Below are positions 1 through 57,186 of a stretch of 59,849 nt of DNA, piece by piece. Under the pieces are notes generated by a model. The model was not told where the DNA came from. It made no database searches and was given only the letters and a program-made list of their open reading frames with translations. The position numbers were made by a program, and so were the translations under genes. Positions within the stretch are counted from its first letter, which is position 1, and the number at the start of each line of letters is the position of its first letter. This stretch comes from a virus, in IMG/VR virus record IMGVR_UViG_3300045988_094266, one strand, 5' to 3'.

Positions 1-168
1 CGGTAAAGTTAGCACGCAAACTTTGTGATCTTGGTTTTATTATTGTTGGAACTGTTCCTAATGTTTAGAAACCTTGGTTAAATGTTTATCTTTTTGAAGA
101 TAGTTAGGATTTAAGGGATGCAGTTTAGAAGTATAAAGGGATAAGTTCGCTATTGGAGGATGATTGCC

Positions 169-558
169 ATGGCAGACAAAAGAAGAAGTCCTAATTAGCG
201 AACTATTAATCATATTCATAAGGAACCATGTGATACTAATAATATATATGCTAGGATTAATAAGGAAGCGTTATTTGCGGCCCGTAGAGAGTTGACAGAT
301 GGAGAGTTCTCTTTGTGGATATTTTTTGCTAGTCAATCTGAGAGGTTAACTGATTATGATTTTGGGCCTACTATTATAGAAAAAGAGCTTGGTATAAAGA
401 GAGCGAAATATACAAGTGCAGTAGATGGATTGGTAAAAAAGGGATATTTAGTTCCAGTTGAGAGAAAAGGATATTACGATTTTTACGAGATTCCTATTGA
501 TAGTGACGACGATAAATATAATTATATAGCTCCAGACGGAGAGAAATTTTCTTTTTAA
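169..558 (+). CDS. Replication-initiator-like winged-helix protein (RepA_N/DnaD-like) with an in-frame TAG at codon 10
   Basis: GGAGG lies 9 nt upstream of the ATG at 169. The frame runs through TAG 196-198 into the 292..558 track ORF. The C-terminal part looks like a winged helix (KELGIKRAKYTSAVDGLVKKGYL). The gene sits directly upstream of iteron-like repeats. Confidence 0.4.
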
Positions 559-560
559 TC

Positions 561-811
561 GTATTTCTGCAATACTATGAAAAAATTTCATGTATTTCTG
601 AGAATACTATGATTTCATCATATTGTGAAAAAGCTATGAAATTTTCATATATTTGTTGGAAAGCGATGAAATTAATTTCATAGTATTCTGATAATACTAT
701 GAAATTAATTGAAAAGGATTTTCATAGCTTTTTCACAATACCATGTCATAGTATTCTGACAATACCATGAAAGTAAATAAAAATCCATTTCATGGTATTC
801 TGACAATACAA
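561..811. repeat. Array of at least 5 copies of a 27-bp palindromic motif TTCATRGTATTCTGAYAATACYATGAA (iteron- or operator-like)
   Basis: Read directly in the sequence. Copies lie near 561-582, 587-612, 677-703, 745-771 and 788-811, with half-sites between them. Confidence 0.7.
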
Positions 812-903
812 CAAATATAACATATATTAGATAACAGAGTTAAGATAACAGTTGCGACTTTTTCATGTATTTGTGAAAAAGCGATGAGTAGGAGGATTAA
901 AGC

Positions 904-1270: not shown

Positions 1271-1375
1271 TGATAAAATAGGGAAGAGAGGTGCCGATCG
1301 GGTCTAGGTACGAACCATCACAACACTCGTCACAACGATCGTAAACCTAGCCTTCCGCATTATAATATATATAAA

Positions 1376-1412
1376 AAAGGAGAGAAGCTACAATACTTCT
1401 CTCTCCTTTAAT
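1376..1412 (-). terminator. Rho-independent terminator for gene 1426..1881
   Basis: Hairpin AAGGAGAGAAG/CTTCTCTCCTT followed by a T-run on the minus strand. Confidence 0.55.
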
Positions 1413-1425
1413 CTTTTTCCTCTTG

Positions 1426-1881
1426 TTACTTTAAATGCTTCAAAAACTCCATAATACTATCTTCATCAGACTTAGTATTACCCTTAACCTGAGGCACACT
1501 CTTTGCGAGAGCATCAGAAATAGAGTCAACAGCAATGTCAATTACTTCATCAAGACTCTTTGCATTGACTACTCGAGCGGAAGTCTTAGCAGTTACAGTC
1601 ATAGCCTGCATAAACTGCTTAATATCATTTGCTGTCCACTTAGGATTGCTCTTGCTATAAACCAGCGCAGCTACACGACCAACGTCATCCTCAGTGAGAG
1701 ACAAATCATCAACATTGCCATAAAAAGTAGACTCAATCTCATCCAGAAGAATATCTCGTTCATGGTCTGCGGCGTTAGCCTCGGAGATTCTATTCATAGC
1801 ATCAGTAAATGCCTTTGCAATCTCCTCCTGAGTAGAACCATTCTGCATTGCATCACGAATCATAATCTCATAACTATTCAT
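1426..1881 (-). CDS. Hypothetical protein
   Basis: 151-codon ORF in standard code, followed by a terminator. Confidence 0.6.
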   Translation of the reverse strand: MNSYEIMIRDAMQNGSTQEEIAKAFTDAMNRISEANAADHERDILLDEIESTFYGNVDDLSLTEDDVGRVAALVYSKSNPKWTANDIKQFMQAMTVTAKTSARVVNAKSLDEVIDIAVDSISDALAKSVPQVKGNTKSDEDSIMEFLKHLK

Positions 1882-2126
1882 AATAAGTTCTTTTAGTTAG
1901 AAAAAGCGTTATGATGCTTCTTAAACTAAAATCCTCCTTTTCTTTATCTTATGTATATATTATATTATATTTTTTATATATTGTCGAACCGATCGGGTCT
2001 AGATAAAAAGATCGCTTTAACGGAATCCCGCGGAAAAGATTTTTCCTTTTCAAATAGTTAGCAACATCTTTACTATTGTTTGCTGTATCTTTAATGGTTT
2101 TAATTCTGTGAATATCAAGAAATTTT

Positions 2127-2190
2127 GAGAAAAACGAGGCATTTTTTGCTTATTTTTAAGTAAATTTGTTAGAAAAACGCGCATTTTTGC
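2127..2190. repeat. Two direct copies of GAAAAACG(A/C)G(G/C)CATTTTTGC
   Basis: Read directly. They lie in an AT-rich intergenic region that also holds a TTGTTAT/ATAACAA inverted repeat. Confidence 0.4.
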
Positions 2191-2661
2191 AAGATTTTAG
2201 AGGTTTTTTGTTATATTTTGCGATAACAAGAGGTAAAAGATCGCGGGCCGATCGGTTTATCTAGCTAAAATCTCTATTTTTGAGCTATTTTTATCATAAA
2301 ATCGTGTTAAACCGATCGGTTTCGCGAAAGAAATCTCTGGTCGTATTTGTTTTTCATAGCTATATCTTTGCTATTGCTAGTTGTATTTTAGAAAGTTTTG
2401 GTACTGTGAATACTTGACAATTTTAAGATTTTTATTATAAAAAATTGGACGAGAGAGCCAATATTGCTGGACCGATCGGAACTAGATAAAGAAAGAAGTA
2501 AAGTAGGGCCGATCGGTGTTTGAAAGATGGCGTTATGAATTTTGGGAAAATTGCTATGAAGTTGCGTTATGGCCAAGTTGCTATGAAAATTTTGCGCTAT
2601 GGTCCGATCGGGGAAATTCGGGCCGAGTCGCCCGCGACCGGCCCGTCGAGTTTAGAAAATA

Positions 2662-2698
2662 TAAAATAAAAAGAGAGGCCAAAGCCTCTCTTTTCTTA
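2662..2698. terminator. Bidirectional intrinsic terminator
   Basis: Hairpin AGAGAGGC-caaa-GCCTCTCT flanked by an A-run and a T-run. Confidence 0.55.
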
Positions 2699-2701
2699 AT
2701 C

Positions 2702-2947
2702 CTAGTTTTCTAAATTGATTTCTCCTATACAGTTACACCGTATCGGAGATTCAAAAACAAATTCATCTCCATATCCAACGATAGTTATTTCTCCATACTT
2801 TTTACAATACTCGTCTATCTTTTCGATTAGACTATTCCAATCTTTCTCTTGCGCTTTTTGTTTTCTAAGTGCCACTTCTTTATAGGCGGTAGCACTCAAC
2901 CATTGCAACTCCTCATCATTCAGTTTGTTGAAATCAATATCAACCAT
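2702..2947 (-). CDS. Hypothetical protein
   Basis: 81-codon ORF with a terminator downstream. Confidence 0.5.
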   Translation of the reverse strand: MVDIDFNKLNDEELQWLSATAYKEVALRKQKAQEKDWNSLIEKIDEYCKKYGEITIVGYGDEFVFESPIRCNCIGEINLEN

Positions 2948-2964
2948 CTAAAAATCTCCTTTCT

Positions 2965-3417
2965 TTAATGAAAAATCTCAGCCGGAATTTCACTAAAAAC
3001 TTGCTTAAATTGCTCCATAGTCAGTTCTCTTGCCGCTCTCTCAACCCTTTCTTTTGCCCAGTCGCAAACCATTTCGCAGGAAATAAATTTAATTTCATAC
3101 CCAGTAATGGCGTAGATTTTAGGCGACCACTCAAATCTTTTTGTATCAGCCATATTTCCAGTTAAAATCATATATTCGCCGGTGGCTTGATTTTCTTCTG
3201 ACTGTTCAACCCAACATTGAACTATATTTTCAACATAGTTTTTTCCAGTTTTAACCGCTTCTTTTTCGGTTCGAGCATTGATTAAAAAGGTAGAAAGCAT
3301 AATATCATCACGAAATGATACCGTAAATTTATAAGGCTTCTTAGAGAAGATACCCTTGCGACCTTCACACCAAAAGGTAACTTGAAAATTAACACGAAAT
3401 TGTTTTAAGCTTTCCAT
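2965..3417 (-). CDS. Hypothetical protein
   Basis: 150-codon ORF. Confidence 0.6.
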   Translation of the reverse strand: MESLKQFRVNFQVTFWCEGRKGIFSKKPYKFTVSFRDDIMLSTFLINARTEKEAVKTGKNYVENIVQCWVEQSEENQATGEYMILTGNMADTKRFEWSPKIYAITGYEIKFISCEMVCDWAKERVERAARELTMEQFKQVFSEIPAEIFH

Positions 3418-3425
3418 TTCTTTTA

Positions 3426-3554
3426 TCTCCTGTAATAATCTTCAATATAAAATTTCATTTCTTTTTCTGTACTTTGTCCTAATACCGAATAAATAGTGGA
3501 AATGTCAAGGCAAGTTCTTTTAATTAAGAAACGAATGATAGAGTTTTTAAGTTT
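3426..3554 (-). CDS. Small hypothetical protein (about 42 aa)
   Basis: Strong RBS GGAAGGGAGG upstream of the ATG at 3554. The ORF is below the track cutoff. Confidence 0.3.
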
Positions 3555-3584
3555 ATTCATCATTTCTTTTACCTCCCTTCCATG

Positions 3585-3752
3585 GTTAAATGATACCACA
3601 TTTTCGGGAGAAAGTCAAGCTGTCAAGTTGCACAAATTTTCAATTCAAAATTGTTGAAAATGACAATAGAAGAAAAATTCGGACCGCGGCGCACGCAAGC
3701 GGTCCGCTCAAAATTTTGCATAAAAAAATCTCCCCATAAGGGGAGATTTTTC
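3585..3752 (-). promoter_or_regulatory. Intergenic cassette copy 1: terminator, GC hairpin, inverted repeat, promoter
   Basis: Read on the minus strand in this order. Terminator ATCTCCCC/GGGGAGAT. GC hairpin CGGACCGC..GCGGTCCG followed by AATTTTT. TTGCACAA..TTGTTGAA inverted repeat. Then -35 TTGACT, 17-nt spacer, -10 TATCAT. Confidence 0.5.
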
Positions 3753-3753
3753 T

Positions 3754-4114
3754 TTAGTTGAGAATTATTGGATATGCCTTGCGAATAACCACCGTAACCA
3801 TGGCCGGGGGAGTGTCGCACAAGAAACGGTCATTTCTGATAAAACGACCAATTCCCATATTCTGCCACAAAGTCCGGTTTACATCCTCGTATCGTAGGGT
3901 ATTATACTTGGAAAGTTTGATATGCCAATCATAGATAAAGGAACCATCTTCCGGCATGGTGTAATCTGGAGCCCGCTTATAATTTCTCGTATGTTCTGCG
4001 GCTCTGCGCTCAAGATCATTTGTCGTGCCAATCTTGAGAATATAGCGCCCCTTTTTGTCGATATAATGTCCGACATATAGAAACTCTTTTCCCCTTGTCT
4101 GTAAACTAACTATA
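3754..4114 (-). CDS. GIY-YIG nuclease-like ORF lacking a canonical start codon
   Basis: The stop-to-stop frame encodes YVGHYIDKKGRYILKIGTTNDLERRAAEHTRNY, a GIY-YIG motif. The only ATG in this frame is far internal. An in-frame ATA follows an AAAGAGG RBS. Confidence 0.45.
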
Positions 4115-4130
4115 ACTTACCTCTTTTCTG

Positions 4131-4158
4131 GTAGGGCCGGGGTAGGCCGACCCTACCA
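4131..4158 (-). terminator. GC-rich hairpin between genes (terminator-like)
   Basis: Stem GGTAGGG ... CCCTACC. Confidence 0.35.
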
Positions 4159-4160
4159 CG

Positions 4161-4478
4161 TTATTTCTTCGGTTTACGCTTTTGCACAAGCGTCAACTCG
4201 AAACTATCCCCACCAATAGAAAACGCAATCTGTCTTTCCTTGTTAGTAATAGACAAGTCAGCGATAGAGAATTGACTGTTTTTTTCCAAAAACTCTGCCA
4301 ATTCCGCAATTATACCGCCTTTCGTGGCGTTTGGCTTGCGTTGCCGTGTAGTGAACTTATATGCGGTTGGCTGTTTGCGCGTTCCAGCATGGGCAAACTT
4401 TTGAGCGATTTTCGCCTTTTCTGGCGGTAAATCGTATTCAGTCTTTTTATCAGCCTCTACCGCTTTATCATAGGCCAA
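4161..4478 (-). CDS. Hypothetical basic protein
   Basis: 105-codon ORF with a TTG start and a GGAGG RBS. Confidence 0.5.
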   Translation of the reverse strand: MAYDKAVEADKKTEYDLPPEKAKIAQKFAHAGTRKQPTAYKFTTRQRKPNATKGGIIAELAEFLEKNSQFSIADLSITNKERQIAFSIGGDSFELTLVQKRKPKK

Positions 4479-4587
4479 TAAATCTGCCTCCTCTTCCGGC
4501 GTTAATTGCAGGGCTTTATACCTTGCAATCCGTTCAGCGTCACTAATACGACTGGATATAATATCACCCCCATATTATAAGTTAGGG

Positions 4588-4612
4588 CGGGGATTTTCAC
4601 CCCGCCCTATAC
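4588..4612 (-). terminator. Hairpin GGGCGGGG/CCCCGCCC downstream of gene 4617..5027
   Basis: The stem is stable but the U-tract is weak. Confidence 0.4.
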
Positions 4613-4616
4613 GGGG

Positions 4617-5027
4617 TTACGCCATCTTAAAAAGGGACTTGCCCTTCTTTTCCGTGCAGACCACTCGACCATCGAGTTTCAACTGCCGCACAAGGGCGGC
4701 GACCTTCTGGTTAGAATAGGCCGTCAGATCAGGAATAGCCTTAAAAATTTCCGTGCAGGTCACGCCATCGGTATCGGCATCCAGATCAGCCAGATACTCC
4801 ATAATCTGCTCCTTAAAATTCTCGTTCTCCTGCTGGGTGGAAGTCAGCTTCTTGTCACCGCTAGAGCTATTCTTCTTACGCAGAAGCTCCAGCTCATGGT
4901 CAATGACAGTAATAGCCACCTCGATGGTAGTGCCATACTTTACCTCGCCGTCAGTCAAGAGGGCCTTAATGTCTTCAAAACGCTGGGCCTTAGTAATGCG
5001 GATTTTCTTCTCGTCCATAATATACAT
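4617..5027 (-). CDS. Hypothetical protein, possibly a winged-helix regulator
   Basis: 136-codon ORF driven by three tandem promoters. The C-terminal segment resembles a winged helix, but this is only a weak resemblance. Confidence 0.55.
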   Translation of the reverse strand: MYIMDEKKIRITKAQRFEDIKALLTDGEVKYGTTIEVAITVIDHELELLRKKNSSSGDKKLTSTQQENENFKEQIMEYLADLDADTDGVTCTEIFKAIPDLTAYSNQKVAALVRQLKLDGRVVCTEKKGKSLFKMA

Positions 5028-5045
5028 CCTTTCTGGTTTTTAGGA

Positions 5046-5300
5046 CTGTCCTTGTCCTTTGATTATATTGTACCACACTATTTGGTACTTGTCAAGAGGT
5101 TTTTCAAACTTTTTTCAAGAACTTTTGCCCTTTACTTGTTTGCCCTCTCAACCTCCCTTATAGTGTAACACACTTTGGAAAGTTTGTCAAGCCCTTTTTA
5201 TTTAATTTTCAAGGTACATTGCCTTGTTTTCTGTACTTATTATAGCACATCTTCAAAGGCTTGTCAAGAGGTTTTTGAAAGATTTTTGAGAAATTCGCTG
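5046..5300 (-). promoter_or_regulatory. Three tandem sigma70-like promoters on the minus strand
   Basis: On the minus strand: TTGACA-17-TATAAT, TTGACA-17-TACACT and TTGACA-17-TACAAT, each preceded by an A-tract. Confidence 0.5.
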
Positions 5301-5379
5301 TCACTGTCTGCCGTTCGTCTCTCTCACTTTCTGAATGTATTTTACCACAAGCAAAAGCAGATTGCAAGCGTCGAATTGC

Positions 5380-5555
5380 ACAAAAAATCGGAATTTTGGG
5401 AGAGAGTTTTTGTGCAAAATTCTGCACAAAAACGGGACGAAATTTTTGTGCAACATTACCATTGAAAAATTCGGCCCGCGTCAGCCATCCGCGGGCCGTC
5501 GACCTTTTAGATATAAAAAAAAATAAGAGGGCTGTAAAGCCCTCTTAAATATCAA
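5380..5555 (-). promoter_or_regulatory. Intergenic cassette copy 2 with a duplicated inverted repeat
   Basis: Terminator AGAGGGCtgtaaaGCCCTCT. GC hairpin CGGCCCGCG..CGCGGGCCG. Two TTGCACAA..TTGTGCAA inverted repeats. Confidence 0.5.
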
Positions 5556-5730
5556 TCATATAACTATAAACCATATCCCAAAGCGGCATATCATCCAGAA
5601 GGATATTTACAGTCAAAAGTCCGGTTTCTGTCGGCCCATCAACAAACCATCCCAGCCGCTGCATAAGGTGAATAACCTCATAGACATAATCGGGGTCAAG
5701 ATGGTTAGTGGTAAACTGTCTTGAAAACAT
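5545..5730 (-). CDS. Hypothetical small protein
   Basis: 61-codon ORF between a terminator and an upstream gene. Confidence 0.4.
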   Translation of the reverse strand: MFSRQFTTNHLDPDYVYEVIHLMQRLGWFVDGPTETGLLTVNILLDDMPLWDMVYSYMIDI

Positions 5731-5757
5731 TTCTTTTCCTTTCTATCGGGCGGGGCT

Positions 5758-6549
5758 TTAAGCCCCTACCCGAATTGTCGGATTATTTTTCAAACTTGCG
5801 GAAAGTTGACGCTGAAAATCTGTCATAGGCGGAAACTCTCTTTTATTCTCATACAGGGCCTTTCTCATGGGCTTATGCTGACGCATACAATACCACATGA
5901 TTTCCGCCTCAATCAGAACATCCTCAAGCCCCGTATGACTTTCTTCAAAATCGGTATTGCCAGAGATAAACCGCCACACGATTTCCGCAGTCTTGCGGGG
6001 GACACCATTAGCCTGGACATATCCGTTTTCCTGACAGAATTTCTTATAAGTGGGCATATTGCAGATAACATCCTGTGTCATCTTCATAATATCCCAAATC
6101 TCCACGCTGTCAAACGGGAACCAATAACGCCACTTGGAGTAGGTCACATAACGCTGTGTAACTCTCAAGGCATTATCGTCAAATCTGGCATTATAAGCCG
6201 CAACTTCCTTAATGCCGTATCGCTCAATGGTATTGAGCATAGCTTGGCGGATTTCATAAGTGGTAGCCATTTTACGAGTGCCGGCCCGCAGTTCCTCAAT
6301 ATAGCGGGGAATTTTCCAATTATAATAAGCAGTCCGCATGAGATCCCGCTCATCGTTGAAAATGTCCCTATTTACAAAACTGGCAGTTTCATAAATATTG
6401 CCCTTGGTATCCACTACCGCCCATCCGCAATCATAGACAAGAACGCAACTCATATCCATGCGGGCTTTGCCGTTTTCGTCAGTTTCAGTCAGTGTGTTAG
6501 CAGTTTCAGTATCAACCACCAAAACATAGTGTCTACGCTTATCAATCAT
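5758..6549 (-). CDS. DEDDh-type 3'-5' exonuclease (DnaQ/RNase T-like)
   Basis: Motifs VLVVDTETAN (Exo I) and HTGLEDVLIEAEI (Exo III). A consensus promoter TTGACA-17-TATAAT and an AGGAAG RBS lie upstream. Confidence 0.6.
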   Translation of the reverse strand: MIDKRRHYVLVVDTETANTLTETDENGKARMDMSCVLVYDCGWAVVDTKGNIYETASFVNRDIFNDERDLMRTAYYNWKIPRYIEELRAGTRKMATTYEIRQAMLNTIERYGIKEVAAYNARFDDNALRVTQRYVTYSKWRYWFPFDSVEIWDIMKMTQDVICNMPTYKKFCQENGYVQANGVPRKTAEIVWRFISGNTDFEESHTGLEDVLIEAEIMWYCMRQHKPMRKALYENKREFPPMTDFQRQLSASLKNNPTIRVGA

Positions 6550-6574
6550 AATCTTTGACTTCCTTTCCTCTTGT

Positions 6575-6948
6575 TGAGTTTATTATAGCACATATCATGC
6601 TTGATGTCAAGAGGAAAAGGAAATTTTTATTGCGATTTACTGCAAGCTACTGGGCATTAGAACGGCCTATTCTAACGGCGTTCACTCGACTTACGACACA
6701 ATATAAATTTACTTCCTTTACTTTCTAAGAGTTCGCGACCTCTTGATTTCTTGGCCTTCCCCTCTTGACAAATATATAATACCATACTTTCGGGATAATT
6801 ACAAGATGGCAAATTGCACAAAATTTGCAAGCCAAAATTGTGCAACATCGACAAAAACAAAAACTCGGCTCGCCGCGTGCGCCAGCGAGCCGCCCAAACG
6901 ATATTAAAGAGTAAAAATAAGAGGGCCGAAGCCCTCTTAATATCCAAG
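6575..6948 (-). promoter_or_regulatory. Intergenic cassette copy 3
   Basis: Terminator AGAGGGCcgaaGCCCTCT. GC hairpin CGGCTCGC..GCGAGCCG followed by a T-tract. Inverted repeat TTGCACAA-N16-TTGTGCAA. Promoters TTGTAA-17-TATTAT and TTGACA-17-TATAAT. Confidence 0.55.
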
Positions 6949-7125
6949 ATATTCTTTATTGATAATCTCGTCAAGCCAATAGCTCAAATCTTCAAGCGAA
7001 ATATCGTCATCAATTTCATTGTCGGCCATAACCTGATCAATTTGACCAATGAGAATGGACGCATTTTTCAATACTTGTCGCTCTTCCTCGCTGAGGATAA
7101 GCCTATTAACCTTTCTAATCTTCAT
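6937..7125 (-). CDS. Hypothetical small acidic protein
   Basis: 62-codon ORF with an AGGAAG RBS. Confidence 0.45.
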   Translation of the reverse strand: MKIRKVNRLILSEEERQVLKNASILIGQIDQVMADNEIDDDISLEDLSYWLDEIINKEYLGY

Positions 7126-7165
7126 TTACAAAACTTCCTTTCTTATTTTAAGATTGACTGGTGGA

Positions 7166-7630
7166 TTACTCTACCAGTCGCCATAAGGCCGTAGGTAAAT
7201 CTTCATGTGGCTCGATTGTTTCCCCTAAATGCCAGCCATCCCGCACACTTTTATTATCATCAATCAAAATGAAATTGCTAATTCCCGGCTCAAAGTGTTT
7301 CCGCACACAATTTGCTTTTGTTGTGCCATATTCCACAAGGTGGACTTTATGTGCGGGGAAGTTGTATTTTGCAAGCCAAGTGCGCTTTGCGTCACGAACA
7401 GCAGTTTTATATGAGTTAGAACTGTCTTTTGCAAGCCAACTGATAACCCGAATTTCCCAGCCCTGCTCAATGAGTTTATTAAGAACGGTATTCAATTCTT
7501 CTATATCGCAAAGAGGTTTGGCGACTGTATATGGATAGGGATTTTCATTCATTAAATCTTTTAACCAATCATCCACGCCGTACAGGTCAACGATTGTTCC
7601 ATCCATATCAAAGCAGAGCATCTTTTTCAT
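7166..7630 (-). CDS. HAD-superfamily hydrolase, possibly a 5'(3')-deoxyribonucleotidase
   Basis: N-terminal CFDMDGTIVD matches HAD motif I (DxDGT). Confidence 0.55.
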   Translation of the reverse strand: MKKMLCFDMDGTIVDLYGVDDWLKDLMNENPYPYTVAKPLCDIEELNTVLNKLIEQGWEIRVISWLAKDSSNSYKTAVRDAKRTWLAKYNFPAHKVHLVEYGTTKANCVRKHFEPGISNFILIDDNKSVRDGWHLGETIEPHEDLPTALWRLVE

Positions 7631-7644
7631 TTTGATTTACTTCC

Positions 7645-7840
7645 TTTCTTTAGGTTGATTAAAGTATATCAGATTTCGGGATAGAAAACAAGAGGCAAAC
7701 TGCACAAAATTTCGGCTGGAAAATTGTGCAACTTCTACAAAAGAGAAAATTCGGCGCGCCACGCACGTTAGCGCGCCGCCGAGAAGCCTATTCAAAAAAT
7801 GGGATAAAAAAGAGGGCCGAAGCCCTCTTTTAACTTTCAC
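7645..7840 (-). promoter_or_regulatory. Intergenic cassette copy 4
   Basis: Terminator AGAGGGCcgaaGCCCTCT. GC hairpin CGGCGCGCC..GCGCGCCG. Inverted repeat CTGCACAA..TTGTGCAA. Promoter TTGTTT-17-TATACT. Confidence 0.5.
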
Positions 7841-8291
7841 ATATATTTGCAAGAAATCTTGCAGAAAGTTTAACCATGTCATGGACAGATTCTTCGTTAT
7901 TGCTATTTTTATAGCAAATAAAACCAAGCTGGTCGCCATTCACAAGAATTGGTGTAATAAACATACTTTCCCATTTTGTCGCCGAACTGCGAATATCAAT
8001 CCAGTCATCGGGAACTCTTGTAATTCCAAAGGAACGCGGCCCGCATAAAATTCCATCATTGTCAAAAATAGCCGCGGCGATTCCGTTAGATGAAAGGGCA
8101 TTTTGCATTTGTTTAGCGTAAGAGGAAAATTCTCCCATTATAGAATATTTCTTAAAAACTACGCCGCCATCTTCTTCAAGAAAAATCTCTAATGGGTCGC
8201 CTTCTCTAATATGAAGGTTTCTACGGATTTCCTTTGGAATTACTATCCGGCCCAAATCATCAATACGGCGCACAATTCCAGTAGCTTTCAT
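7830..8291 (-). CDS. AbrB/SpoVT-family transcriptional regulator
   Basis: N-terminal MKATGIVRRIDDLGRIVIPKEIRRNLHIREGDPLEIF matches the AbrB swapped-hairpin DNA-binding domain. The roughly 100-aa C-terminal domain suggests a SpoVT-like protein. Confidence 0.7.
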   Translation of the reverse strand: MKATGIVRRIDDLGRIVIPKEIRRNLHIREGDPLEIFLEEDGGVVFKKYSIMGEFSSYAKQMQNALSSNGIAAAIFDNDGILCGPRSFGITRVPDDWIDIRSSATKWESMFITPILVNGDQLGFICYKNSNNEESVHDMVKLSARFLANICES

Positions 8292-8295
8292 TTTT

Positions 8296-8327
8296 ATCTG
8301 CGGGAGTGCAAGATTTATAGTCTTGCA
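8296..8327. other. Strong hairpin GGGAGTGCAAGA/TCTTGCACTCCC next to the start of the AbrB/SpoVT gene
   Basis: A 12-bp perfect stem. There is no clear U-tract on the minus strand. Confidence 0.35.
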
Positions 8328-8343
8328 CTCCCTTCCTCCCTTC

Positions 8344-18279: not shown

Positions 18280-20026
18280 ATGGCATTAAAAGATTTATTA
18301 AACCTTTCAAATAATAATAAGAAAATTGGCCTTTCCGAAGAAAGAGTTCGTGCGATAATTCCAGCAGCAAGATAGTATATAGCTTTTTGGAGAGAATATC
18401 CAGATATGTTTATTGACTTTTTGTAGACCGGCGGAGACGAGACAAGAAAAAAAGAAATTAATTTTTATTTTTATTAGAGAGTTTTCTTGCGGGCGGCTAT
18501 GAGATATAAGTATGTATACATGGTATTTCCTCGTGCCTATTCTAAGTCATTCTTATCAGTAACGGTGCTTATGTGTAGATGTATATTATATCCTGGATGT
18601 AAGCTATTCATTACTTCTGGTGGAAAAGAACAGGCAGCAGGTATAGCAAAAGAAAAAGTCTAGGAAATTTGTAATGCGATTCCCGCGCTTTAGAGAGAGA
18701 TTGATTGGCGAAGAGGTAAGACTTAGGAAGGAAAAGATTATTGTAAGTATATCTTCAAAAATGGATCTTATTTTGACAACGTTGCTGCTAGAGAATCTTC
18801 TCGTGGTAAGCGTAGACATGGAGGATTAATTGAGGAGTGCGTTGGTGTAGATGGGGATATTTTAAATGAAGTTTTAATCCCTCTAATGAACGTTGATAGA
18901 AGATGTTTAGATGGATCTGTTCATGAAGAAGAAACACTCAATAAATCCTAGATTTATGTTACTACTGCGGGGTGGAAAAACACATTCCCATATAATAAGT
19001 TGATTACTTTGCTAGTGCGCATGATACTAGAACCCGAAAAGAGTATTGTAATGGGCGGAACATGGAGAATTCCTGTGCTAGTGGGATTGCAATCCCGCAA
19101 CTTTGTATAGGAGTTAAAACAAGATGGTACATTTAATGAAGCATCATTTGATAGAGAGTATGAATCTAAATGGAGTGGCACCGTAGAAGATGCCTTCTTT
19201 AATGGTGATGCTTTTGATAGAAGTAGAAAATTGCTTTAGCCTGAATATGAATCTTCCGGACGCGCTTCTGCTCAAGCATATTATGTTCTTTCTGTTGATG
19301 TAGGAAGAAAGAAATGTCAATCTGTTGTATGTGTATTTAAAGTAACCCCTCAGTCTCAAGGACCAGCGATTAAGTCTCTTGTTAATATATATACTATGGA
19401 TGATGAACATTTTGAAGATTAGGCAATTAAGCTAAAAAGATTATATTATGATTATAAAGCTAAAATTATTGTTATTGACGGTAATGGACTTGGTGCTGGA
19501 TTGATGGATTACATGGTTAAACCACAAATAGTACCAGATACTAACGAGGTTTTTCCTGATTTTGGTGTAGCCAATGACGAAGATGGAGAATATAAACGGT
19601 TTAGAACAGATAATACAGAATATGATGCTATTTATGAAATTAAGGCAAATGCGCCAATTAATACCGAAGCCCATAGCAATGTTTAGACATAGTTGCGGGC
19701 TGGAAAGTTAAGATTTTTAATCGACGAAAAAGTTGCTAGAAATAAATTACTTGGTACCAAGAAAGGTCAAGCCATGAAACCAGAAGAGCGGGCAGAATAT
19801 TTAAAACCATTCACTTTAACTTCTATATTAAGAGAAGAAATGCTAAATTTGCGAGAAGAAAATGAGGGTGTAAATATTATTTTAAAACAGGCAAATAAGT
19901 CTGTGCCCAAAGATAAATTCTCTGCGCTTGAATATGGATTATATTATATTAAATAGGAAGAAGATAGTAAACGCAAGCGTAAAAGTAGAAGATTTTCAGA
20001 TTTTATGTTTATGAGTGAGGTGTAAG
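18280..20026 (+). CDS. terL: Terminase large subunit (TAG-containing)
   Basis: About 580 codons with an AAAGGAGG RBS, sitting immediately before the portal-sized gene. It has ATPase-like N-terminal and nuclease-like C-terminal regions (VIDGNGLG). The assignment rests on architecture and position. Confidence 0.55.
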
Positions 20027-32429: not shown

Positions 32430-35400
32430 GTGGCTAATAATAGAAGATTAAATTATTAGATTGGGTTTGATGTTGATACTGCTGAACTTTACAGAGCAGT
32501 AAACGAGGCAGTTCAATCTTTAAATAAAATCAGTGCCGGTTCTAAAGTTACAGCAGAATTGCGACAAGCTTCTTAGTCTGCGCTAGAGTTATCTACTTAT
32601 ATGCATTAGGCATTTAATCAAGGGACTGGAAAGTTAGATTTAGTAGCTTTTGAAAATAGTTTAAAATCTAGCGGAAGAACTCTTAAAGATTATGCCAACT
32701 CGTTAATTTCGATTGGTACCGAGGGGCAAAAGGCTTTTTTAAATGTAGCAACAGCGATTCAAAAAGCGGAGCTTCCAGCATTGCGCACTGGCAAAATATT
32801 TGATTAGTTATGGATTACTATGAAAAATACTATGAGATGGCAGATTACCTCCACCGCGTTAAATAGTTTTGTGGGAACCATAGAATCAGCTTATGGGTAT
32901 GCACAAGATCTAAATGAATCATTAACAAATATTCGTATAGTTACTGAAAATTCTGCGGAAGACATGGCTAAATTTGCTCAATAGGCAAATGAAGCAGCAA
33001 AAGCATTAAGTACAACTACTGTTGAATATAGTGATGCTGCTTTGATTTATTATCAATAGGGTCTTACTGAATAGGAAGTTTTAGATAGAACTGAAACTAC
33101 TATTAAAATGGCTAATGCCGCAGGAATTAGTGCATAGACCGCTTCGGATCAGCTGACCGCAGTTTGGAACAACTTCTATGATGGAAGTAAGAGTCTTGAA
33201 TATTATGCTGATGTAATGGTGCGTTTAGGCGCCGATACAGCGTCTAGCTCTGATGAAATTTCAGAAGGTATCCAACAATTTGCCTCTGTAGCAGATACAG
33301 TTGGATTAAGTTACGAATATGCTGCTTCTGCTCTTGCTACTGTCACTGCTACGACACGTGAGTCTGCTAATACAGTAGGTACAGCATTTAGAACTTTATT
33401 TGCTCGTATCCAAGGCTTAAATCTTGGAGAAACTCTCGATGATGGCACTACATTAAATAAATATTCTAAAGCTCTTGAAAAAGTGGGTATTGATATTTTT
33501 GATGTTAATGGTGAGATTAAAACTATGGATACCTTACTTGATGAAATGGGTTCAAAATGGGAGACCTTATCTAATGACTAGTAGATTGCTTTGGCTTAGA
33601 CCGTAGCCGGAGTTCGCCAATATACTCGTCTTATTGCACTTATGGATAATTGGGATTTCTTTTAGGAGAATTTAGCTAGTGCTTATGGAGCAGAGGGATC
33701 TCTTTAGGAACAGGCAGATATTTATGCTGAATCTTGGGAAGCTGCTAGAGATAGAGTAAAAGCATCTGCTGAGGATATTTATGATAGTGTCATAAATCCA
33801 GATTTGTATATAAATGCAGATAATGTCTTAACTCCATTTTTATCTGGTATTGCAGACGCCATTGATGCAATGGGAGGGTTAAATGGTATTTTAGCTAGTA
33901 CCGCTTTGTTGATTAATGGGATTTATGGAAATAAGATTGCTGAATCAATGCGTTCTATGGTGGCTAATATAAAAGTTCTATCTGGATTAGAGTAGAATAG
34001 AGCGAGAAATTTGTAGGCATCAGCGGCTGAGATAGCAACTCAATTAGGCTTAACAAACTCTATGTCTTAGGCTGAAAAAAATCTTTTTAATATTATGGTT
34101 GACTAGGCTAATATATAGGGCCAAATAAATAGTAACTACGACGCGATGGATGCTAATGGTCGTAGATTAATTTAGACAGAACAGTTAAAATTAAGTATTT
34201 TGCAAGATTAGTTAAAGACATATTCTTAGTAGTAGATTTAGTCTAGGGAAAATGTATTAAATCTTAGAGATACTATTTATTTTAATATAGGAATAAAAGA
34301 TGGCTGGCAAGAAGAAGTTAAAGCAGAAATAAATAAATTTAATAGTAGAAATAAAAGTAATCAAATTTAGTTAAATATAAGAGCTAATAGTAACCTTGAT
34401 AAAATTTATAATGATGTTACTACTTAGTTAACTAGTTTAATTTAGCAATCTACAAAACTTGATACAGTGTATCAAGAATTTAAAAAACTTGAAAGCGCTG
34501 GAACTGCGACTAGAGACAGCCTTCGTAATTTATTATCTAGTGTTACGGGCAAAGAACATAATTATGCTTAGATTGAATGGCTGACTTAGCAATTAGAGGG
34601 GTTAAAAAATTAGTCTCAAAATGCAAAATTGCAAATTCGTGAACTTGGGACTATTTTATAGACTATGGGAGCCGATCCAAGAGTAGTTACTTCTTATATT
34701 AATGAATTAACAAAATTGGAGTCTGTTACTGCAAGAACAACTGAACAAGAGGCTCGATATTAGGAATTGTTAGCGAAGTTCCCTAGTGTAATTACAAAAG
34801 CATTAATACCAACGAGAGATTGGGCTACAATATTGGTTTAGGTTGGAAGTTCTCTTTCTAGTTTAACTATGATTATGAATGCTTTTTAGAGCATTGGAAG
34901 AATTTTTTCTGATGAAGATATGACTTCAACTGAAAGAATTGTAGCTTTGTTTACTTCTCTTGGTATGTTACTACCCTCTATTATTTCTGTTTATAAAACT
35001 TTAAATATGTTAACTACTGCTCATGCTGTTGCAGCAGCGGCGGACGCCGCGGCAACAGCAGTAGAGGCTTTAGCGACAGAATAGCTTGCTATGGCGAAGC
35101 AGAAAGCCGCTATGGCTTCCGGCATCTTAACTGCTGCAATTATGGTAGCAATAATAGCGATTACTGCAATAACAAGTGCTATAAAAGCATAGCATGAAGC
35201 AACCTTGGCTGCTGCTTAGGCCTCTATTGATGCGGCAAATGCAAAAAAAGAAGAAGCACAAGCGAATAGAGAGTTAATTCAATCTACTCAAAATGCCTTA
35301 TCTACTTATCAAGAAACTGGGGATGGAAAAGAAGAGTTAGATGATTTAACTCGTTAGTTGGCTGAAGCGTATGATTTAGAAGGCAGTGCATTAGCTAGAC

Positions 35401-38400
35401 TAAGTGGATAGTATGAAGATTATAATAGTGTTTTAAAAGCTGCTCAAGAAGCTCAAAGAAGAGAACTTTAGGAAACTTTGTAGTCCCAAGAAGAAGCGTT
35501 ACGTGCGAATGAAACTCTCATTCTTGAAACCGCGAGAGAGGGCGTGGGCCACGTATATTTTGGTGGAAATTATGAGGGGTCTTTTACTGGTTTTAATGAT
35601 TTTTGGAATGGCACCGAAGAAGATACTGCATCTAATATTCTTCTCAATAATGTGGACGCTTTATATAGTAGTTGGAATGACAATGTAATTGGCGGAAGAA
35701 GAAACTTAGCTTTTTCTATAGACCCAAATAATACAGAAGAATTAATTAATTTTTATGATCAATTAAATAATGCTATTAATTTGATGAATAATAGCATGAC
35801 TGTTTCGGAAAGAGGAGCATCTGGACTTTACAATGCTGCTGTTGAGTGGCGAGATAAAATGGAAGAGGTTGTCACTCAATATAAAGAAACTAAAGAGAGT
35901 ATAAATGCTATTCGGGTATAGCTTGGAGAGTTTAATAATTAGACTATTACCGATGATCAAGTATCAAGTTTAGCGTAGTATAAAATTTGGGTTAACGAAG
36001 TTACAGAGGCGCTCACTTCTGCTGGATATGAAGGCGAAGAATTAAACGATATAATCAATGATTTAGTATCTACTTCTCTGAATCCTGATATTAGTGGCTT
36101 TAAAGATATTTATGACGCAATTTTAGAGGTTGAAGAATTAGTCAATGATGAAGAATTAAAAAGTAATCTTGAATCTATTTTTACAGATGAAAATTATGAT
36201 ACTTCTGTATTAAATTTATTAAATTGGGGTGCTTTAACATAGGAGACTTTTTAGGATGCCTATGACAGTGCTAAAAAATATACTGATGCTATTTCCGAAG
36301 TTGAAAACGCAACAGAATCTTTAACTACTGCACAATCTGCCTTAGAAACTCTTGGAGATAGAGATTTAGATCGAGAAGGATTAGAATCACTTTCTAAAAC
36401 TGTTGATTGGGGAAATCAAGAAAAAGGAATTATTGATTTTAATTAGTTCCTTGCTATGACTTTAGTTGAACAATAGAGTTATTTATAGAGGATTATAAAT
36501 GAGTCCTATTAGGCTGTCAATAATGGATTAATAGATTAGATTAGTGAAGCAAAAAAGAGAATAACTGAGCAATAGGATATTTTAAATCAATATAGCGATT
36601 CTGAATTAGAACGTGCAGAAAAAGTTGTTTATGCTTGGGAACAAGTTCGAGAAGCGTATAATGATTATCAAGGTAGCTTAAATGGCGGAGAAGAATTTAA
36701 TCTTGATAATTATACGATTGATTGGGATTTGTTAGGTGAAAATTTTGATTGGGAATCTTTTAAAACCGAAACTGCGGATAACGTAGCTAGTGCATTTGAG
36801 TATGGGACAAAAGAAGCTCAAGATAAAATTGATACTGTAACTTTAGCAGAGTAGCTAATTAGTAGTTTATAGGATGATATAGATTCTAGCACAGCTTAGT
36901 TACAAATAAATGCAGAATTAAATTTTTAGAATCAATTAGATTAGATTGAAAATTCCGTTGACGGAATTGTAAGTGTATTCGATGCTATTTCTGATGGAGT
37001 AAGCTAGACTACCAATGAAGCTGGAGAACAAGTTTGGAGTTTTAGTAGAGAAGCAGCTAAGGCTATTGAATCTATCTATCCAGGTTTTATAGCTAACGCG
37101 GAATTATTAAGGGATGGTACATTTGCTTTAACAGATGAGATGTATCAAGCATTTTATAATAGTTCTTAGGGGCAATTAGCTGTTGATGCTGATACCAAAT
37201 CTAATATGCTTCAAAATCTTATTTCTCTTTTAGAGGCTAAACGAGGAGAGGCTGAAGCTTCGCTTAAGATCGCTGATCAGCTAGCTTCTGGAGAATTAAC
37301 TATAAACGAATTATCAGATGAGCAGAAGAGAACTTTATTAGCGGGATATGTAAATGCTTAGAATCTTGCTAATGGAGAAATGTTAGATGATTAGGTCAAT
37401 AGTTTAACCGCACAAGATACAAATTAGTAGACTTTATGGACTAATGTTAGCGAGTATTCTGCTTAGGGCGCGCAGAACATGAGTACTAATGTATAGTTAA
37501 ATACTCAAAATGTTCTTGCTAATCTTGAAAAAATTAGAGATGCGGCATATGCTACTGGAATTCAAGTATCTCAAATAGGAACTGATAATGTTACTAAGCA
37601 AGATTTTGATACTTCTGCTGTTTCTTTTGATAGTTCGGCTGCAACAACAATAGATACGAGTAACGCTAATGATTTCTTAAATTCTTTAACTGCAAATTTA
37701 GATGTAGAACCTGTAACCGCAGACGATTTAAATATTTATGGTGATGCTAGTGAGGCACTTGAAGCTAAGCAATCTTAGGCAGTTGGAGAAGCGCTAAGGG
37801 CCATTTATTAGGGGAGTATTGATGGGTATAATGAGGCTATAGCAGCAGCAAAAATAGCCTAGAGCAAATTATTAGATTCTATTGATGGAGCTATAGAAGG
37901 GGTAAAGGGAAGTTCAAGTGGCGGAGATAATGAAGGCACTAAGTATGACGAAGAAGATGAAAAGACTCTAAAGGATATTGAAGATAGATACCATGAAATA
38001 ACTCGCGAAATTGAGAATTAGAACGATTTATTAGATGATATTGGAAATAATATAGATAGAGCCTATGGCGCCAATAAACTTCAAGCATACTAGAGAGAAC
38101 TTCAAGAATTAGAGAAATAGCAAGCTAATTATAACAAACTACTTAATGAAGCTGAAACTTATCTTACAAAAGACTAGGCAGATCTTCAAGGGTTGTTTAA
38201 TAATTCTCTTATTTTTGATGAAAATGGAGAAATTGAAGGTTATCAAAGTGTTCTTCAATCTATAATAGATGATTATAATAATAATTTCTTAGCGGATTAT
38301 AATGCTTTTTTAGTTGCCTTTAGTAATCTTACTAAAGATGAATAGGAAGCTAGATAGGCAGAATATGATAGTTGGCAGTTACAAAAGGAAGCTGCTGATG

Positions 38401-54389: not shown

Positions 54390-54438
54390 AAAAATGGGGA
54401 GAACCTTAATTTCAAAGGTTCTCCCCATTTTTTATTTC
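54386..54438. terminator. Strong bidirectional terminator at the point where the two strands' genes converge
   Basis: TGGGGAGAACC-ttaatttcaaa-GGTTCTCCCCA flanked by an A8 run and a T6ATTT run. Confidence 0.7.
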
Positions 54439-54533
54439 TCGCAAGGAGGTTTACTATATAAATGATAATGCGGTTTTTCTTCTCCAAACCATTTCCATCT
54501 TAGGTAGTCGTCTAATACTATTGCCAAAAGGCT

Positions 54534-54890
54534 TAAAAAGAACCAGGCGATAGAGAATGGTAAACAAATCTACCCCATAAAATTCAATGGAATATGAGAA
54601 TAATCCCAAATACCTAAGCCTAGTTTTACATTTAATACTAGACCAAAAATTAATTCTAAAGCAGTTATAATTAAAGAGCCTTTTATTCCTTGAGTAAGAA
54701 TGGATTCTTCCCAAAGAATGTTCTCATTCATTAGTCCTATCAATAAAAAACATAAACCGCCTAATAAGAACATAGACCAATGACAGGTTCCAAGACTGAT
54801 AAAAGTTTTATAGAGGAGCTCTATACCGTAATATAGAGTTCCTCCAACCGCGAATAGAATTATATTTTTACTTACTGTCGGTATCTTCAT
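54534..54890 (-). CDS. Small polytopic membrane protein (holin-like?) with one in-frame TAG
   Basis: Three to four hydrophobic segments. The 106-codon track ORF is extended by 11 codons through a TAG. Confidence 0.4.
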
Positions 54891-55530
54891 ATTTTAACTC
54901 AATAGCTTTTAATTTATCTATCGAATCAGCTTCGAATATCTAAGTTTTATATTCTTGCATTAAATGATATTTAGGATATACCGCATTTGAAATAGCTAAA
55001 CTTAGAGCGGATAATTGCTCTAAACTCCATGGCACACATTCTTCGTGTCGAGCGTGCCACTCAAGCGTAGGATTTTCTACTTCAGCCGCGAGAGCGACTT
55101 GATATTGATTGAGATTTAAGCTAATCTCAGACTGGTCCTCCTACGTAATTCCATATTCTTTTCCATCAACCCAAGTTAGTGGGTGGGCAGCAAGATACTC
55201 TGCGAATAATTTCTTGTTTTCCTCTTGTTTGTCATACTTTGCCTAATCTAAATCAGAAGTGAATGTTCCATCTTCTTGATTATATATTGAATAATTAGGA
55301 GTAACATCTGATGGAATTGTTTCTATCTCTAATACTTTTACAGCATTAGATTGATTTAATACATCGGCTTTAATTAGAGTATAATGTGTATCTCCATTTG
55401 AGCCGATAACCCCAGTTCCCTCTTCTTCCTCGCAGGCAACGACAATACCATTTGAGGATTGCAGTTTAATGTAACGTGCTTCTGAAAGAATATCAACTAC
55501 TACATTCTCTCTATTTAATAGAATATACAT
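54868..55530 (-). CDS. Hypothetical protein (3 in-frame TAGs)
   Basis: The 95-codon track ORF extends in frame to a TAA at 54868. Its ATG overlaps the TAA of the RT extension. Confidence 0.35.
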
Positions 55531-55706
55531 TACTTTATTTCAACTCCTTTAAATAATGAACGAAAATAATTGTCCATATCTTGAATTATATAAAAACAAG
55601 TTCCTTTAGAAATATGTGCCCTCCAACCTTGATAGGATTTCTAAATTTCATCTGTTGAAATTTTACCCTCTAGCCATAGCGCTTGCATTTTCTTCAACTT
55701 TCTGCG

Positions 55707-57156: not shown

Positions 57157-57186
57157 AAAGATACAGAACTTAACCGCAGAAAAATA

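What the first reader, a model, noticed from the sequence alone, without database searches (positions are those of the whole stretch)
1274..2611. Seven copies of the 8-bp palindrome CCGATCGG in 1.3 kb of AT-rich non-coding DNA (parS- or operator-like)
Four copies extend to CCGATCGG-N2-3-CTAGAT. The palindrome contains GATC and CGATCG cores. The same region has further direct and inverted repeats at 2127-2190 and 2540-2610. Clustered palindromes of this kind are typical of partition centromeres (parS) or of multi-site repressor operators. Together with the Rep-like gene and iterons, this raises the possibility of a phage-plasmid lifestyle.
Basis: partly seen in the sequence, partly recalled or inferred. 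Interest (0 to 1): 0.55.

Follow-up and report, generated by a model that had tools for sequence, protein, structure and literature searches.

The report
Conserved palindrome array in gut phages
Seven exact copies of the palindrome CCGATCGG surround a small conserved gene in this stop-codon-recoded gut phage, and the same array recurs unchanged in distant relatives, so it is most likely a set of docking sites for one still-unknown DNA-binding protein that controls that gene, not a plasmid-partition site.

Summary
CCGATCGG occurs 8 times in the window, 7 of them at 1294-2611, against 0.17 expected. The span is not all non-coding: a conserved 151-aa acidic protein gene (1426-1881, minus strand) lies between sites 1 and 2.

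The window is part of a ~100-150 kb phage that reads TAG as a sense codon. Across 28 related loci there are 133 exact sites inside the homologous 1.4-kb regions and only 4 in 290 kb outside. One-mismatch copies are rare. The flanks diverge freely.

The same layout holds even in lineages whose neighbouring protein is only 40% identical. A terminator hairpin is followed by CCGATCGG sites mixed with CATATG-type palindromes, then sigma-70-like promoter(s) with a site beside them, then the small acidic gene, a terminator and a last site.

Best reading (0.42): an operator array for a two-fold-symmetric DNA-binding protein that controls this gene. The binder was not identified. The neighbouring GIY-YIG (T5orf172) nuclease does not co-vary with the array.

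No ParA/ParB was found, and the "Rep/iteron" unit is a swappable module that is independent of the motif. Origin, centromere and RNA-pairing readings are not excluded.

The parts
1294..1301 (.). CCGATCGG site 1. It lies in the gap between the variable DNA-binding-protein/repeat module and the terminator of the small acidic gene. Its extended context, GKSGTG-CCGATCGG-KNCTAG, is conserved in all lineages.
1379..1404 (.). Bidirectional intrinsic-terminator-like hairpin that ends the small acidic gene
1426..1881 (-). Small acidic helical protein gene (151 aa). It is the constant companion of the array and is flanked by sites in every lineage. No known domain.
1959..1987 (-). Predicted sigma-70-type promoter of the small gene (TCGACA-17-TATAAT)
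1989..1996 (.). CCGATCGG site 2, 1 nt upstream of the -35 hexamer of the small-gene promoter
2059..2130 (.). 72-nt repeat copy a (71% identical to 2357-2428)
2120..2188 (.). Two 26-nt A/T-tract repeats (GAGAAAAACGAGGCATTTTT type), conserved in the L046 type
2209..2233 (+). Early-cassette-type promoter-like element on the plus strand (TGT-TATATT ... CAAGAGG). Site 3 starts 30 nt after the -10.
   Evidence: read from sequence, compared with cassette promoters; conserved in L046
2248..2255 (.). CCGATCGG site 3 (left flank GCGGG conserved across types)
2267..2301 (.). Four A/T tracts spaced 10-11 bp apart between sites 3 and 4 (possible intrinsic bend)
   Evidence: read from sequence; also in L046
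2312..2319 (.). CCGATCGG site 4
2357..2428 (.). 72-nt repeat copy b
2414..2441 (+). Promoter-like TTGACA-16-TATAAA on the plus strand. Site 5 starts 30 nt after the -10.
   Evidence: read from sequence; conserved in L046/L048
2434..2461 (-). Promoter-like TTGGCT-16-TATAAT on the minus strand (distal, pointing towards the small gene). Not conserved in the L046 type.
2472..2479 (.). CCGATCGG site 5 (mutated to CTGATCGG in L048/L054)
2509..2516 (.). CCGATCGG site 6
2528..2602 (.). Five short GC(N)YTATG(R) repeats. These are the window's degenerate form of the (C/G)CATATG(G/C) palindromes that accompany the sites in other lineages.
2604..2611 (.). CCGATCGG site 7, 7 nt from the GC hairpin
2619..2645 (-). 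GC-rich hairpin CGGGCCG...CGGCCCG. It is one of seven covarying copies in the early region. On the minus strand it is followed by a U-run (terminator-like), so it marks the upstream boundary of the array.
2668..2695 (.). Classical bidirectional terminator-like hairpin closing the preceding early cassette

Best explanation
The CCGATCGG copies are recognition sites on double-stranded DNA for one sequence-specific, two-fold-symmetric DNA-binding protein. The protein is either part of the conserved core of this phage group or a conserved host protein. Together the sites form an operator array over the enlarged control region of the last early gene cassette.

In transcription order (leftwards in the window) the layout is: terminator hairpin, then four to six sites mixed with CATATG-type palindromes, then one or two sigma-70-type promoters with a site next to the -35 or just downstream of a -10, then the small acidic protein gene, then a terminator, then a final site.

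I infer that protein bound at the upstream sites controls initiation at these promoters. The single downstream site could close a loop around the ~0.5-0.7 kb gene. The result would be a tight on/off switch for the acidic protein.

Shown: the sites, their non-random clustering, their invariance, and the conserved layout.
Inferred: protein binding, the promoters, looping, and the direction of regulation (repression or activation).
For: 1. Enrichment: 7 sites in 1.3 kb against 0.17 expected in 59.8 kb.

2. Family conservation: every relative with enough flank carries 3-7 exact sites in the homologous place. Totals are 133 sites in 34 kb of array regions against 4 in 290 kb outside.

3. Sequence-specific constraint: 65 distinct site contexts share no flank consensus, yet the 8-mer never varies. 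One-mismatch forms number 18 inside and 47 outside. This occurs in genomes that otherwise avoid GATC and many 6-bp palindromes.

4. Depth: the array is present, unchanged, downstream of g105 homologues that are only 40-57% identical, in contigs from other samples.

5. Constant partner: the gene between the last two sites is always a homologue of the 151-aa acidic protein.

6. Promoter geometry: the gap between the nearest site and the -35 of the strong predicted promoter is 0-1 nt in three types and about 17-21 nt in four others (L045, L085, L142, L146). In L146 and L135 a site also starts about 19 nt after the -10 of an upstream tandem promoter.

7. By analogy, every other early promoter in the window has its own dyad-symmetric element just upstream of the -35.

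8. Each copy is itself a palindrome, as expected for a dimer on duplex DNA.

9. No Rfam match was found, and none of 50 predicted RNA pairs shows a compensatory change.
Against: - No binder was identified. The embedded protein is strongly acidic and has no detectable DNA-binding domain.
- The adjacent conserved proteins gave nothing usable. g105 has no fold match. The T5orf172 protein is a GIY-YIG nuclease fold whose presence does not track the array.
- All-or-none conservation of an 8-mer across very divergent phages is unusual for operators, which are normally degenerate. It would fit an enzyme-type recognition, a host factor, or mutual base pairing equally well.
- Site spacings (22-334 bp) show no helical phasing (worked out by hand from the spacings).
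- In L058 and L135 the nearest site is about 100-130 bp from the proximal -35.
- The whole ~700 bp is conserved, not only the sites. It is about 99% identical among the window, L001 and L002, and has long identical blocks against L046. More than simple operators is therefore encoded there.
- All promoters are consensus predictions only.
Confidence: 0.42

Rival explanations
1. Centromere-like or tethering sites. The palindromes load a ParB/KorB-like or host chromosome-organising protein that segregates or anchors the phage genome, for example in a carrier/plasmid state or for spore entrapment.
For: Exact palindromes at irregular spacing with a variable copy number resemble dispersed parS/OB sites (comparison from memory). 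The array lies beside a frequently swapped module of small DNA-binding proteins plus repeats, which could be an incompatibility determinant. The phage carries a SpoVT homologue, which suggests spore-forming hosts.
Against: The core is 8 bp, not 16 bp. No ParA, ParB, TubZ or ParM-type domain appears among the 40 window and relatives' ORFs put through Pfam (mostly early-region and DGR genes; most late genes unscanned) or in +/-10 kb of six relatives. No integrase or other lysogeny marker was seen. The array is tied to one gene and its promoters in all lineages. The neighbouring module genes contain in-frame TAG, so they are expressed only after the code switch.
Confidence: 0.12
2. Replication-origin boxes. 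The sites bind a conserved initiator or helicase-loader next to type-specific initiator repeats, with the A/T-rich repeats acting as an unwinding element.
For: Site 1 directly abuts the short tandem repeat array of the variable module in every type. A/T-tract repeats and phased A-tracts lie inside the array. Conserved exonuclease and wHTH genes are nearby. The whole 700 bp is conserved as if it were densely cis-acting.
Against: No replication initiator, helicase or primase was identified nearby. The variable modules swap without any change in the motif. GC skew follows gene orientation only. The tight association with the small gene's promoters is not explained.
Confidence: 0.12
3. Nucleic-acid pairing elements. 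In an RNA (or in single-stranded DNA) the identical palindromes pair with one another. Any-to-any pairing among three or more segments requires identical palindromes, and would freeze the sequence.
For: MFE folds pair sites 2-7, 3-4 and 5-6, with z about -4.4 on both strands. The outer flanks of sites 3/4 are complementary in three types with coordinated differences: TCGCG/CGCGA, CTGCGG/CCGCAG and TTGCG/CGCAG. Each plus-strand promoter-like element is followed, 30 nt after its -10, by a pair of sites. The CTGATCGG variant would keep a U-G pair on the plus strand.
Against: The z-scores are trivially produced by repeated palindromes. Flank complementarity is absent in the L073/L076/L086 type and weakened in L042. 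None of 50 RNAalifold pairs has a compensatory change. No Rfam family matches. Sites 1 and 2 lie outside any single plausible transcript. In distant lineages the promoters point towards the small gene, and some sites lie upstream of them.
Confidence: 0.1
4. Enzyme targets. The 8-mers are cleavage, nicking or methylation sites of a phage or host enzyme (for example the adjacent GIY-YIG T5orf172 nuclease, or a P1-pac-like methylation-gated packaging site). They would stimulate recombination or packaging at a mosaic boundary.
For: All-or-none exact 8-bp palindromes look like Type II-style recognition. The next conserved gene encodes a confident GIY-YIG fold with the catalytic residues conserved. 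T5orf172 nucleases mark exchange boundaries in other phages (PMC10448857). Module swaps and a 1-kb indel flank the array. Many contigs break here.
Against: T5orf172 is absent within +/-4 kb in lineages that have 5 sites (L135, L142, L146-150), and present in lineages with no site within about 4 kb downstream (L125, L126, L128-132). Contig ends are scattered and do not fall at sites, as expected from assembly-graph branching. The array is 14 kb from the terminase-like gene. No methyltransferase was seen.
Confidence: 0.08

Closest known systems
KorB OB operators of IncP plasmid RK2 (from memory, not tested here)
   Same: Multiple copies of one exact short palindrome. Some lie immediately upstream of a -35 and others tens to hundreds of bp away, with irregular spacing. 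One protein serves many sites.
   Different: OB is 13 bp and is spread over a whole plasmid. KorB is a ParB-family protein encoded with IncC/ParA. Here the core is 8 bp, all sites are within 1.3 kb around one gene, and no ParB-like gene was found.
ParB-parS centromeres, including the dispersed sop sites of phage-plasmid N15 (from memory)
   Same: Near-perfect palindromes, several copies at irregular spacing, close to replication-type functions.
   Different: parS is about 16 bp. Partition genes are absent from all DNA inspected. The array is locked to the promoters of one small gene.
Phage repressor operator sets with looping (lambda OL/OR; gal and lac auxiliary operators) (from memory)
   Same: Dyad-symmetric sites at and around promoters, plus a distal site that could close a loop over the regulated unit.
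   Different: Known operator sets are degenerate and co-evolve with their repressor. Here 133 of 133 counted sites are identical across lineages whose proteins are 40% identical, and no repressor gene is evident.
P1 pac site (seven TGATCA/G hexamers whose Dam methylation gates cleavage) (from memory)
   Same: A cluster of about seven short palindromes that contain GATC.
   Different: P1 pac spans 162 bp inside the pacA gene. This array spans 1.3 kb and is far from the terminase-like gene. There is no evidence for methylation or cleavage.
T4-type PeSL promoter/stem-loop cassettes (from memory)
   Same: The surrounding early region is built of repeated terminator-hairpin plus promoter cassettes. 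Indels are bounded by the hairpins.
   Different: This concerns the context, not the CCGATCGG sites, which occur in only one cassette.

Membership tests
ParB-parS partition centromere | An inverted repeat of about 16 bp recognised by a ParB HTH | tested here: not met
   Only the 8-bp core is conserved. Positions -20..-1 and +9..+28 show no consensus across 65 site contexts.
ParB-parS partition centromere | parA/parB (or another motor plus adaptor) genes on the same replicon, usually adjacent | tested here: not met
   No such Pfam domain appears in the 40 window and relatives' ORFs scanned (mainly early-region and DGR genes, with most late-region ORFs not scanned) or in the precomputed calls for +/-10 kb in six relatives. 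The remaining ~50-90 kb of each genome was not inspected.
ParB-parS partition centromere | Stabilises a plasmid or exerts incompatibility | not testable with these tools
   Needs an experiment.
Transcriptional operator array | Dyad-symmetric sites that overlap or adjoin promoters of the regulated gene | tested here: met
   A site lies 0-1 nt or about 17-21 nt from the -35 of the small-gene promoter in 7 of 9 types, and about 19 nt after the -10 of an upstream promoter in two. The promoters are consensus predictions.
Transcriptional operator array | A cognate DNA-binding regulator | tested here: inconclusive
   The candidates examined are the acidic protein, g105, the T5orf172-like protein, the g136 wHTH and the SpoVT-like protein. 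None could be linked to the motif.
Iteron-type replication origin | Tandem direct repeats of 17-22 bp that co-vary with a neighbouring initiator | tested here: not met
   The sites are 8-bp palindromes 22-695 bp apart. The neighbouring DNA-binding modules swap while the motif is unchanged.
P1-type pac site | A compact cluster of GATC-containing repeats within or beside the small terminase gene | tested here: not met
   The array spans 1.3 kb and is about 14 kb from the first late genes and the terminase-like ORF 18280-20025. That ORF was assigned by position and size only; Pfam gave no hit.
Target of the adjacent GIY-YIG/T5orf172 nuclease | Enzyme gene and sites co-occur | tested here: not met
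   Lineages exist with 5 sites and no T5orf172 within +/-4 kb, and with T5orf172 and no sites within about 4 kb downstream.
Known structured RNA (Rfam) | A match to a covariance model | tested here: not met
   No hit at gathering score in the window. Only sub-threshold, terminator-driven hits in 1100-2800.
Structured RNA in general | Compensatory substitutions that support the helices | tested here: inconclusive
   None of 50 pairs shows a double change. The flanks of sites 3/4 are complementary in 3 types, but not in the L073 type.

The most novel reading that the evidence does not exclude
The invariant palindromes may not be protein operators. They may instead be mutually pairing segments of a transcript (or of single-stranded DNA). 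Because every copy can pair with every other, the set would form a switchable family of helices. That would explain both why each copy must be a palindrome and why the 8-mer is frozen across very divergent phages. Such a multi-state leader or non-coding RNA could time expression of the acidic protein in a phage that changes the genetic code during infection.
Probability: 0.08. Interest if true: 0.75.

Novelty: new member of a known kind. Interest (0 to 1): 0.42.

Why it matters
The array defines a deeply conserved cis-regulatory module in a very common but uncharacterised group of TAG-recoded gut phages. The embedded protein sequence occurs in 555 index blocks of public assemblies, and the nearest described phage, phAss-1, lacks the module.

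The module gives a handle for finding a regulator, phage or host, with an unusually strict 8-bp specificity. It also points to a small acidic early protein whose expression these phages control elaborately. If the binder is a host protein, the motif could help assign hosts to this phage group.

Tried and rejected
- Missing suppressor tRNA or a known RNA hidden in the ORF-free DNA: ARAGORN and Rfam found nothing. The relatives are 100-150 kb, so the tRNAs lie outside the window.
- Literature search for the motif: nothing relevant.
- Rep/iteron link: the hairpin-proximal GCTATGAA repeats resemble the window's repeats at 554-890. However, L002 keeps them while carrying a different Rep module, so this was rejected.
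- Restriction-avoidance story for CGATCG: it is not depleted beyond what GATC depletion explains (20 observed against 19.1 expected).
- Physical genome end at the array: many contigs end nearby, but at scattered positions. This is explained by a conserved segment flanked by variable modules.
- Helical phasing of site spacings: none (worked out by hand).
- The small acidic protein as a GatB/YqeY-like tRNA-binding domain: a 15-bit NCBIfam hit that the PDB profile search did not reproduce.
- g105 as the binder: the model is moderate (pLDDT 75) with no fold match.
- T5orf172 nuclease as the binder or cutter: the GIY-YIG fold was confirmed, but the gene does not co-occur with the array.
- phAss-1 as a comparator: 1 site in 136 kb and no homologues of the module genes.

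Full report
**Observation.** CCGATCGG occurs eight times in the 59,849-bp window. Seven copies lie at 1294, 1989, 2248, 2312, 2472, 2509 and 2604, and one lies at 14048. Dinucleotide shuffles give a mean of 0.17 and never more than one. Three details need correcting. The span contains a real gene, 1426-1881 on the minus strand. Only two sites carry the exact N2-CTAGAT extension. The region is not unusually AT-rich.

**Context.** The window is phage DNA in which TAG is a sense codon. ORF coverage rises from 47% to 92% when TAG is read through, and the late genes 16030-54389 are full of in-frame TAG. The nearest described phage is phAss-1, of the 'Caudoviricetes code 15 clade', which is predicted to infect Clostridia (PMC10607447). 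One relative sits in a MAG labelled as an uncultured Eubacterium.

The leftward early region (about 1400-15700) is built of repeated cassettes. Each has a classical terminator, a GC-rich hairpin with a U-run, an inverted repeat TTGCACAAAATTT...AAATTTTGTGCAA, a sigma-70-like promoter, a CAAGAGG ribosome-binding site and a gene. The hairpin has seven copies with compensatory changes: 96% of cells are paired, three pairs change on both sides, and 0 of 500 shuffles reach the observed score. The hairpin at 2619-2645, 7 nt from site 7, is one of these. The array therefore occupies the control region of the last cassette, stretched to about 730 bp.

**Conservation.** The exact hairpin sequence, and the pattern CCGATCGG-N2-AAA-N-TCGG, retrieved about 25 viral contigs of 55-164 kb. 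Every one with enough flank has 3-7 exact CCGATCGG copies within 1.3 kb. Over 28 loci there are 133 exact sites in 34 kb of array regions and 4 in 290 kb outside. One-mismatch variants number 18 inside and 47 outside. Single sites can be lost, as with CTGATCGG in L048/L054. These genomes otherwise avoid GATC (361 observed against 812 expected) and many 6-bp palindromes.

**Depth.** A search with the conserved neighbouring protein g105 brought in much more distant lineages. Loci whose g105 is only 40-57% identical (L123, L133, L135, L142, L145-L150) still carry 3-5 exact sites downstream. In the three read in detail (L135, L142, L146) the layout is the same. A hairpin plus U-run is followed by CCGATCGG sites mixed with (C/G)CATATG(G/C) palindromes, then one or two strong promoter-like elements with a site beside them, then a homologue of the 151-aa acidic protein, and then a last site. 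The unit is therefore 'array plus small acidic gene'. The exact protein of the window is listed in 555 index blocks of public assemblies.

**What the array is not tied to.** The module to the left of site 1 differs between genomes that share an identical acidic protein. It is a wHTH protein with palindromic repeats in the window, a 212-aa double wHTH in L002/L091, a 47-aa RHH plus three ORFs in L062/L090/L092-94, and DUF6291+HTH_7 in L053.

**Mechanism.** The most economical reading is that each palindrome binds a dimeric, sequence-specific protein on duplex DNA, and that the set acts as an operator array for the acidic gene.

Points in favour:
- The sites have dyad symmetry, and the motif is invariant while everything around it drifts.
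- A site sits 0-1 nt from the -35 of the near-consensus promoter (TCGACA/TTGCAA/TTGGCA-17-TATAAT) in three types, and about 17-21 nt away in four others. In two lineages a site also follows an upstream tandem promoter by about 19 nt.
- Every other early promoter of this phage has its own dyad element at the equivalent place.
- The single site beyond the terminator would allow a loop around the gene.

Points against:
- No binder is known.
- An 8-mer that stays identical across lineages whose proteins have diverged to 40% identity is atypical for operators. It suggests a host factor, enzyme-like recognition, or mutual pairing.
- The spacings are not helically phased.
- In L058 and L135 the nearest site is 100-130 bp from the proximal promoter.
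- The whole 700 bp is conserved, about 99% between the window, L001 and L002, although the adjacent gene is only 86% identical in L001.

**Rivals.**
- *Centromere.* Exact, irregularly spaced palindromes next to a swappable DNA-binding module would fit. However, the core is 8 bp and no partition gene appears in any DNA inspected.
- *Origin boxes.* Site 1 abuts the short tandem repeats of the variable module in all types, and A/T-tract repeats and phased A-tracts lie inside the array. But no initiator or helicase is nearby, and the link to the promoters is left unexplained.
- *RNA or single-stranded DNA pairing.* Any-to-any pairing would require identical palindromes and would freeze them. The flanks of sites 3/4 are complementary, with coordinated differences, in three types. 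That complementarity fails in a fourth type, RNAalifold finds no compensatory change, and Rfam finds nothing.
- *Enzyme target or packaging site.* This is disfavoured by the lack of co-occurrence with the nuclease and by the scattered positions of contig ends.

**Verdict.** This is a real, strongly non-random, deeply conserved cis-element. It is best classed as a new example of a multi-site palindromic operator-type array whose binding partner is unknown. The parS / phage-plasmid interpretation is not supported by anything that could be tested here.

Noticed in passing
window 16030-54389 (+), also 160-558, 14835-15659, 54432-59553: TAG is used as a sense codon (code-15-like). ORF coverage rises from 47% to 92% when TAG is read through. 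One late ORF (32430-41156) has 98 in-frame TAGs. No tRNA gene lies in the window. Relatives are 100-150 kb and carry tRNA arrays elsewhere.
   Followed up: partly
window 55530-59553 (-): A diversity-generating retroelement. It has a reverse transcriptase at 55530-56747 (PF00078), an Avd-like ORF at 57187-57681, a template repeat at 57054-57156 and a variable repeat at 57777-57879, at the 3' end of target gene 57763-59553. All differences fall at template adenines.
   Followed up: yes
window 2614, 3675, 5467, 6861, 7747, 9400, 10826 (36-nt copies) and flanking about 150 bp: Seven repeated early-gene cassettes. Each has a terminator, a covarying GC hairpin AAATTCGG-stem-CCG, an inverted repeat TTGCACAAAATTT..AAATTTTGTGCAA, a promoter and CAAGAGG. 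The inverted repeat looks like a second, separate operator class.
   Followed up: partly
window 2650-3700 vs L001: A three-gene block (2702-2947, 2965-3417, 3423-3599) is absent from relative L001. The junction lies directly after the GC hairpin at 2619-2645, and the other end is at the hairpin at 3681-3706. This suggests hairpin-bounded cassette gain or loss.
   Followed up: partly
window 160-890; L002 5637-6869; L053 11600-12682; L062/L090 11238-12148: The module left of site 1 exists in at least four unrelated versions (wHTH, double wHTH, RHH, DUF6291+HTH_7), each with its own repeats, beside an identical small acidic gene. The L002 version has 11 in-frame TAG codons.
   Followed up: partly
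window 7830-8291, 13068-13505, 13490-14320, 14835-15659 (all -): Host-like early genes: a SpoVT/AbrB homologue whose N-terminal domain matches the SpoVT family model (TIGR02851) over its first 82 residues, a PTH2 peptidyl-tRNA hydrolase, a microbial-type PARG, and FolD (with 4 TAG codons).
   Followed up: no
window 3754-4101 (-): A stand-alone 116-aa T5orf172 protein with a confident GIY-YIG nuclease fold and conserved catalytic-type residues. It has no attached DNA-binding domain and lies at a mosaic boundary.
   Followed up: yes
family loci, 247 kb outside the array: Many 6-bp palindromes are strongly avoided (ATCGAT 2 observed against 50 expected, CTCGAG 4 against 46, AGTACT 3 against 33), as is GATC (361 against 812). 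This suggests heavy restriction pressure from the hosts.
   Followed up: partly
contigs 068993, 075249, 3300029726_000006, 7000000081_000034, 038812, 051734, CALCFD010000051, L065: At least eight assemblies end within about 1.5 kb of the array, but at scattered positions. This is probably assembly-graph branching where a conserved segment meets variable modules.
   Followed up: partly
L124 and L134 (whole loci): In two distant g105-bearing phages with no CCGATCGG in the fetched locus, a different palindrome, GCCCGGGC, recurs 9-11 times at intervals of roughly 400-2400 bp across the locus.
   Followed up: no
window 5030-5114: An 85-nt stretch is 79% identical to a Gokushovirus record (KT264788). 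It lies in an ORF-poor stretch of the early region.
   Followed up: no
window 14048-14055: The eighth CCGATCGG lies inside the PARG-like ORF. The extra site in L045/L057 lies in a stretch that looks unrelated by eye (a translated comparison returned no output). It is probably incidental.
   Followed up: partly
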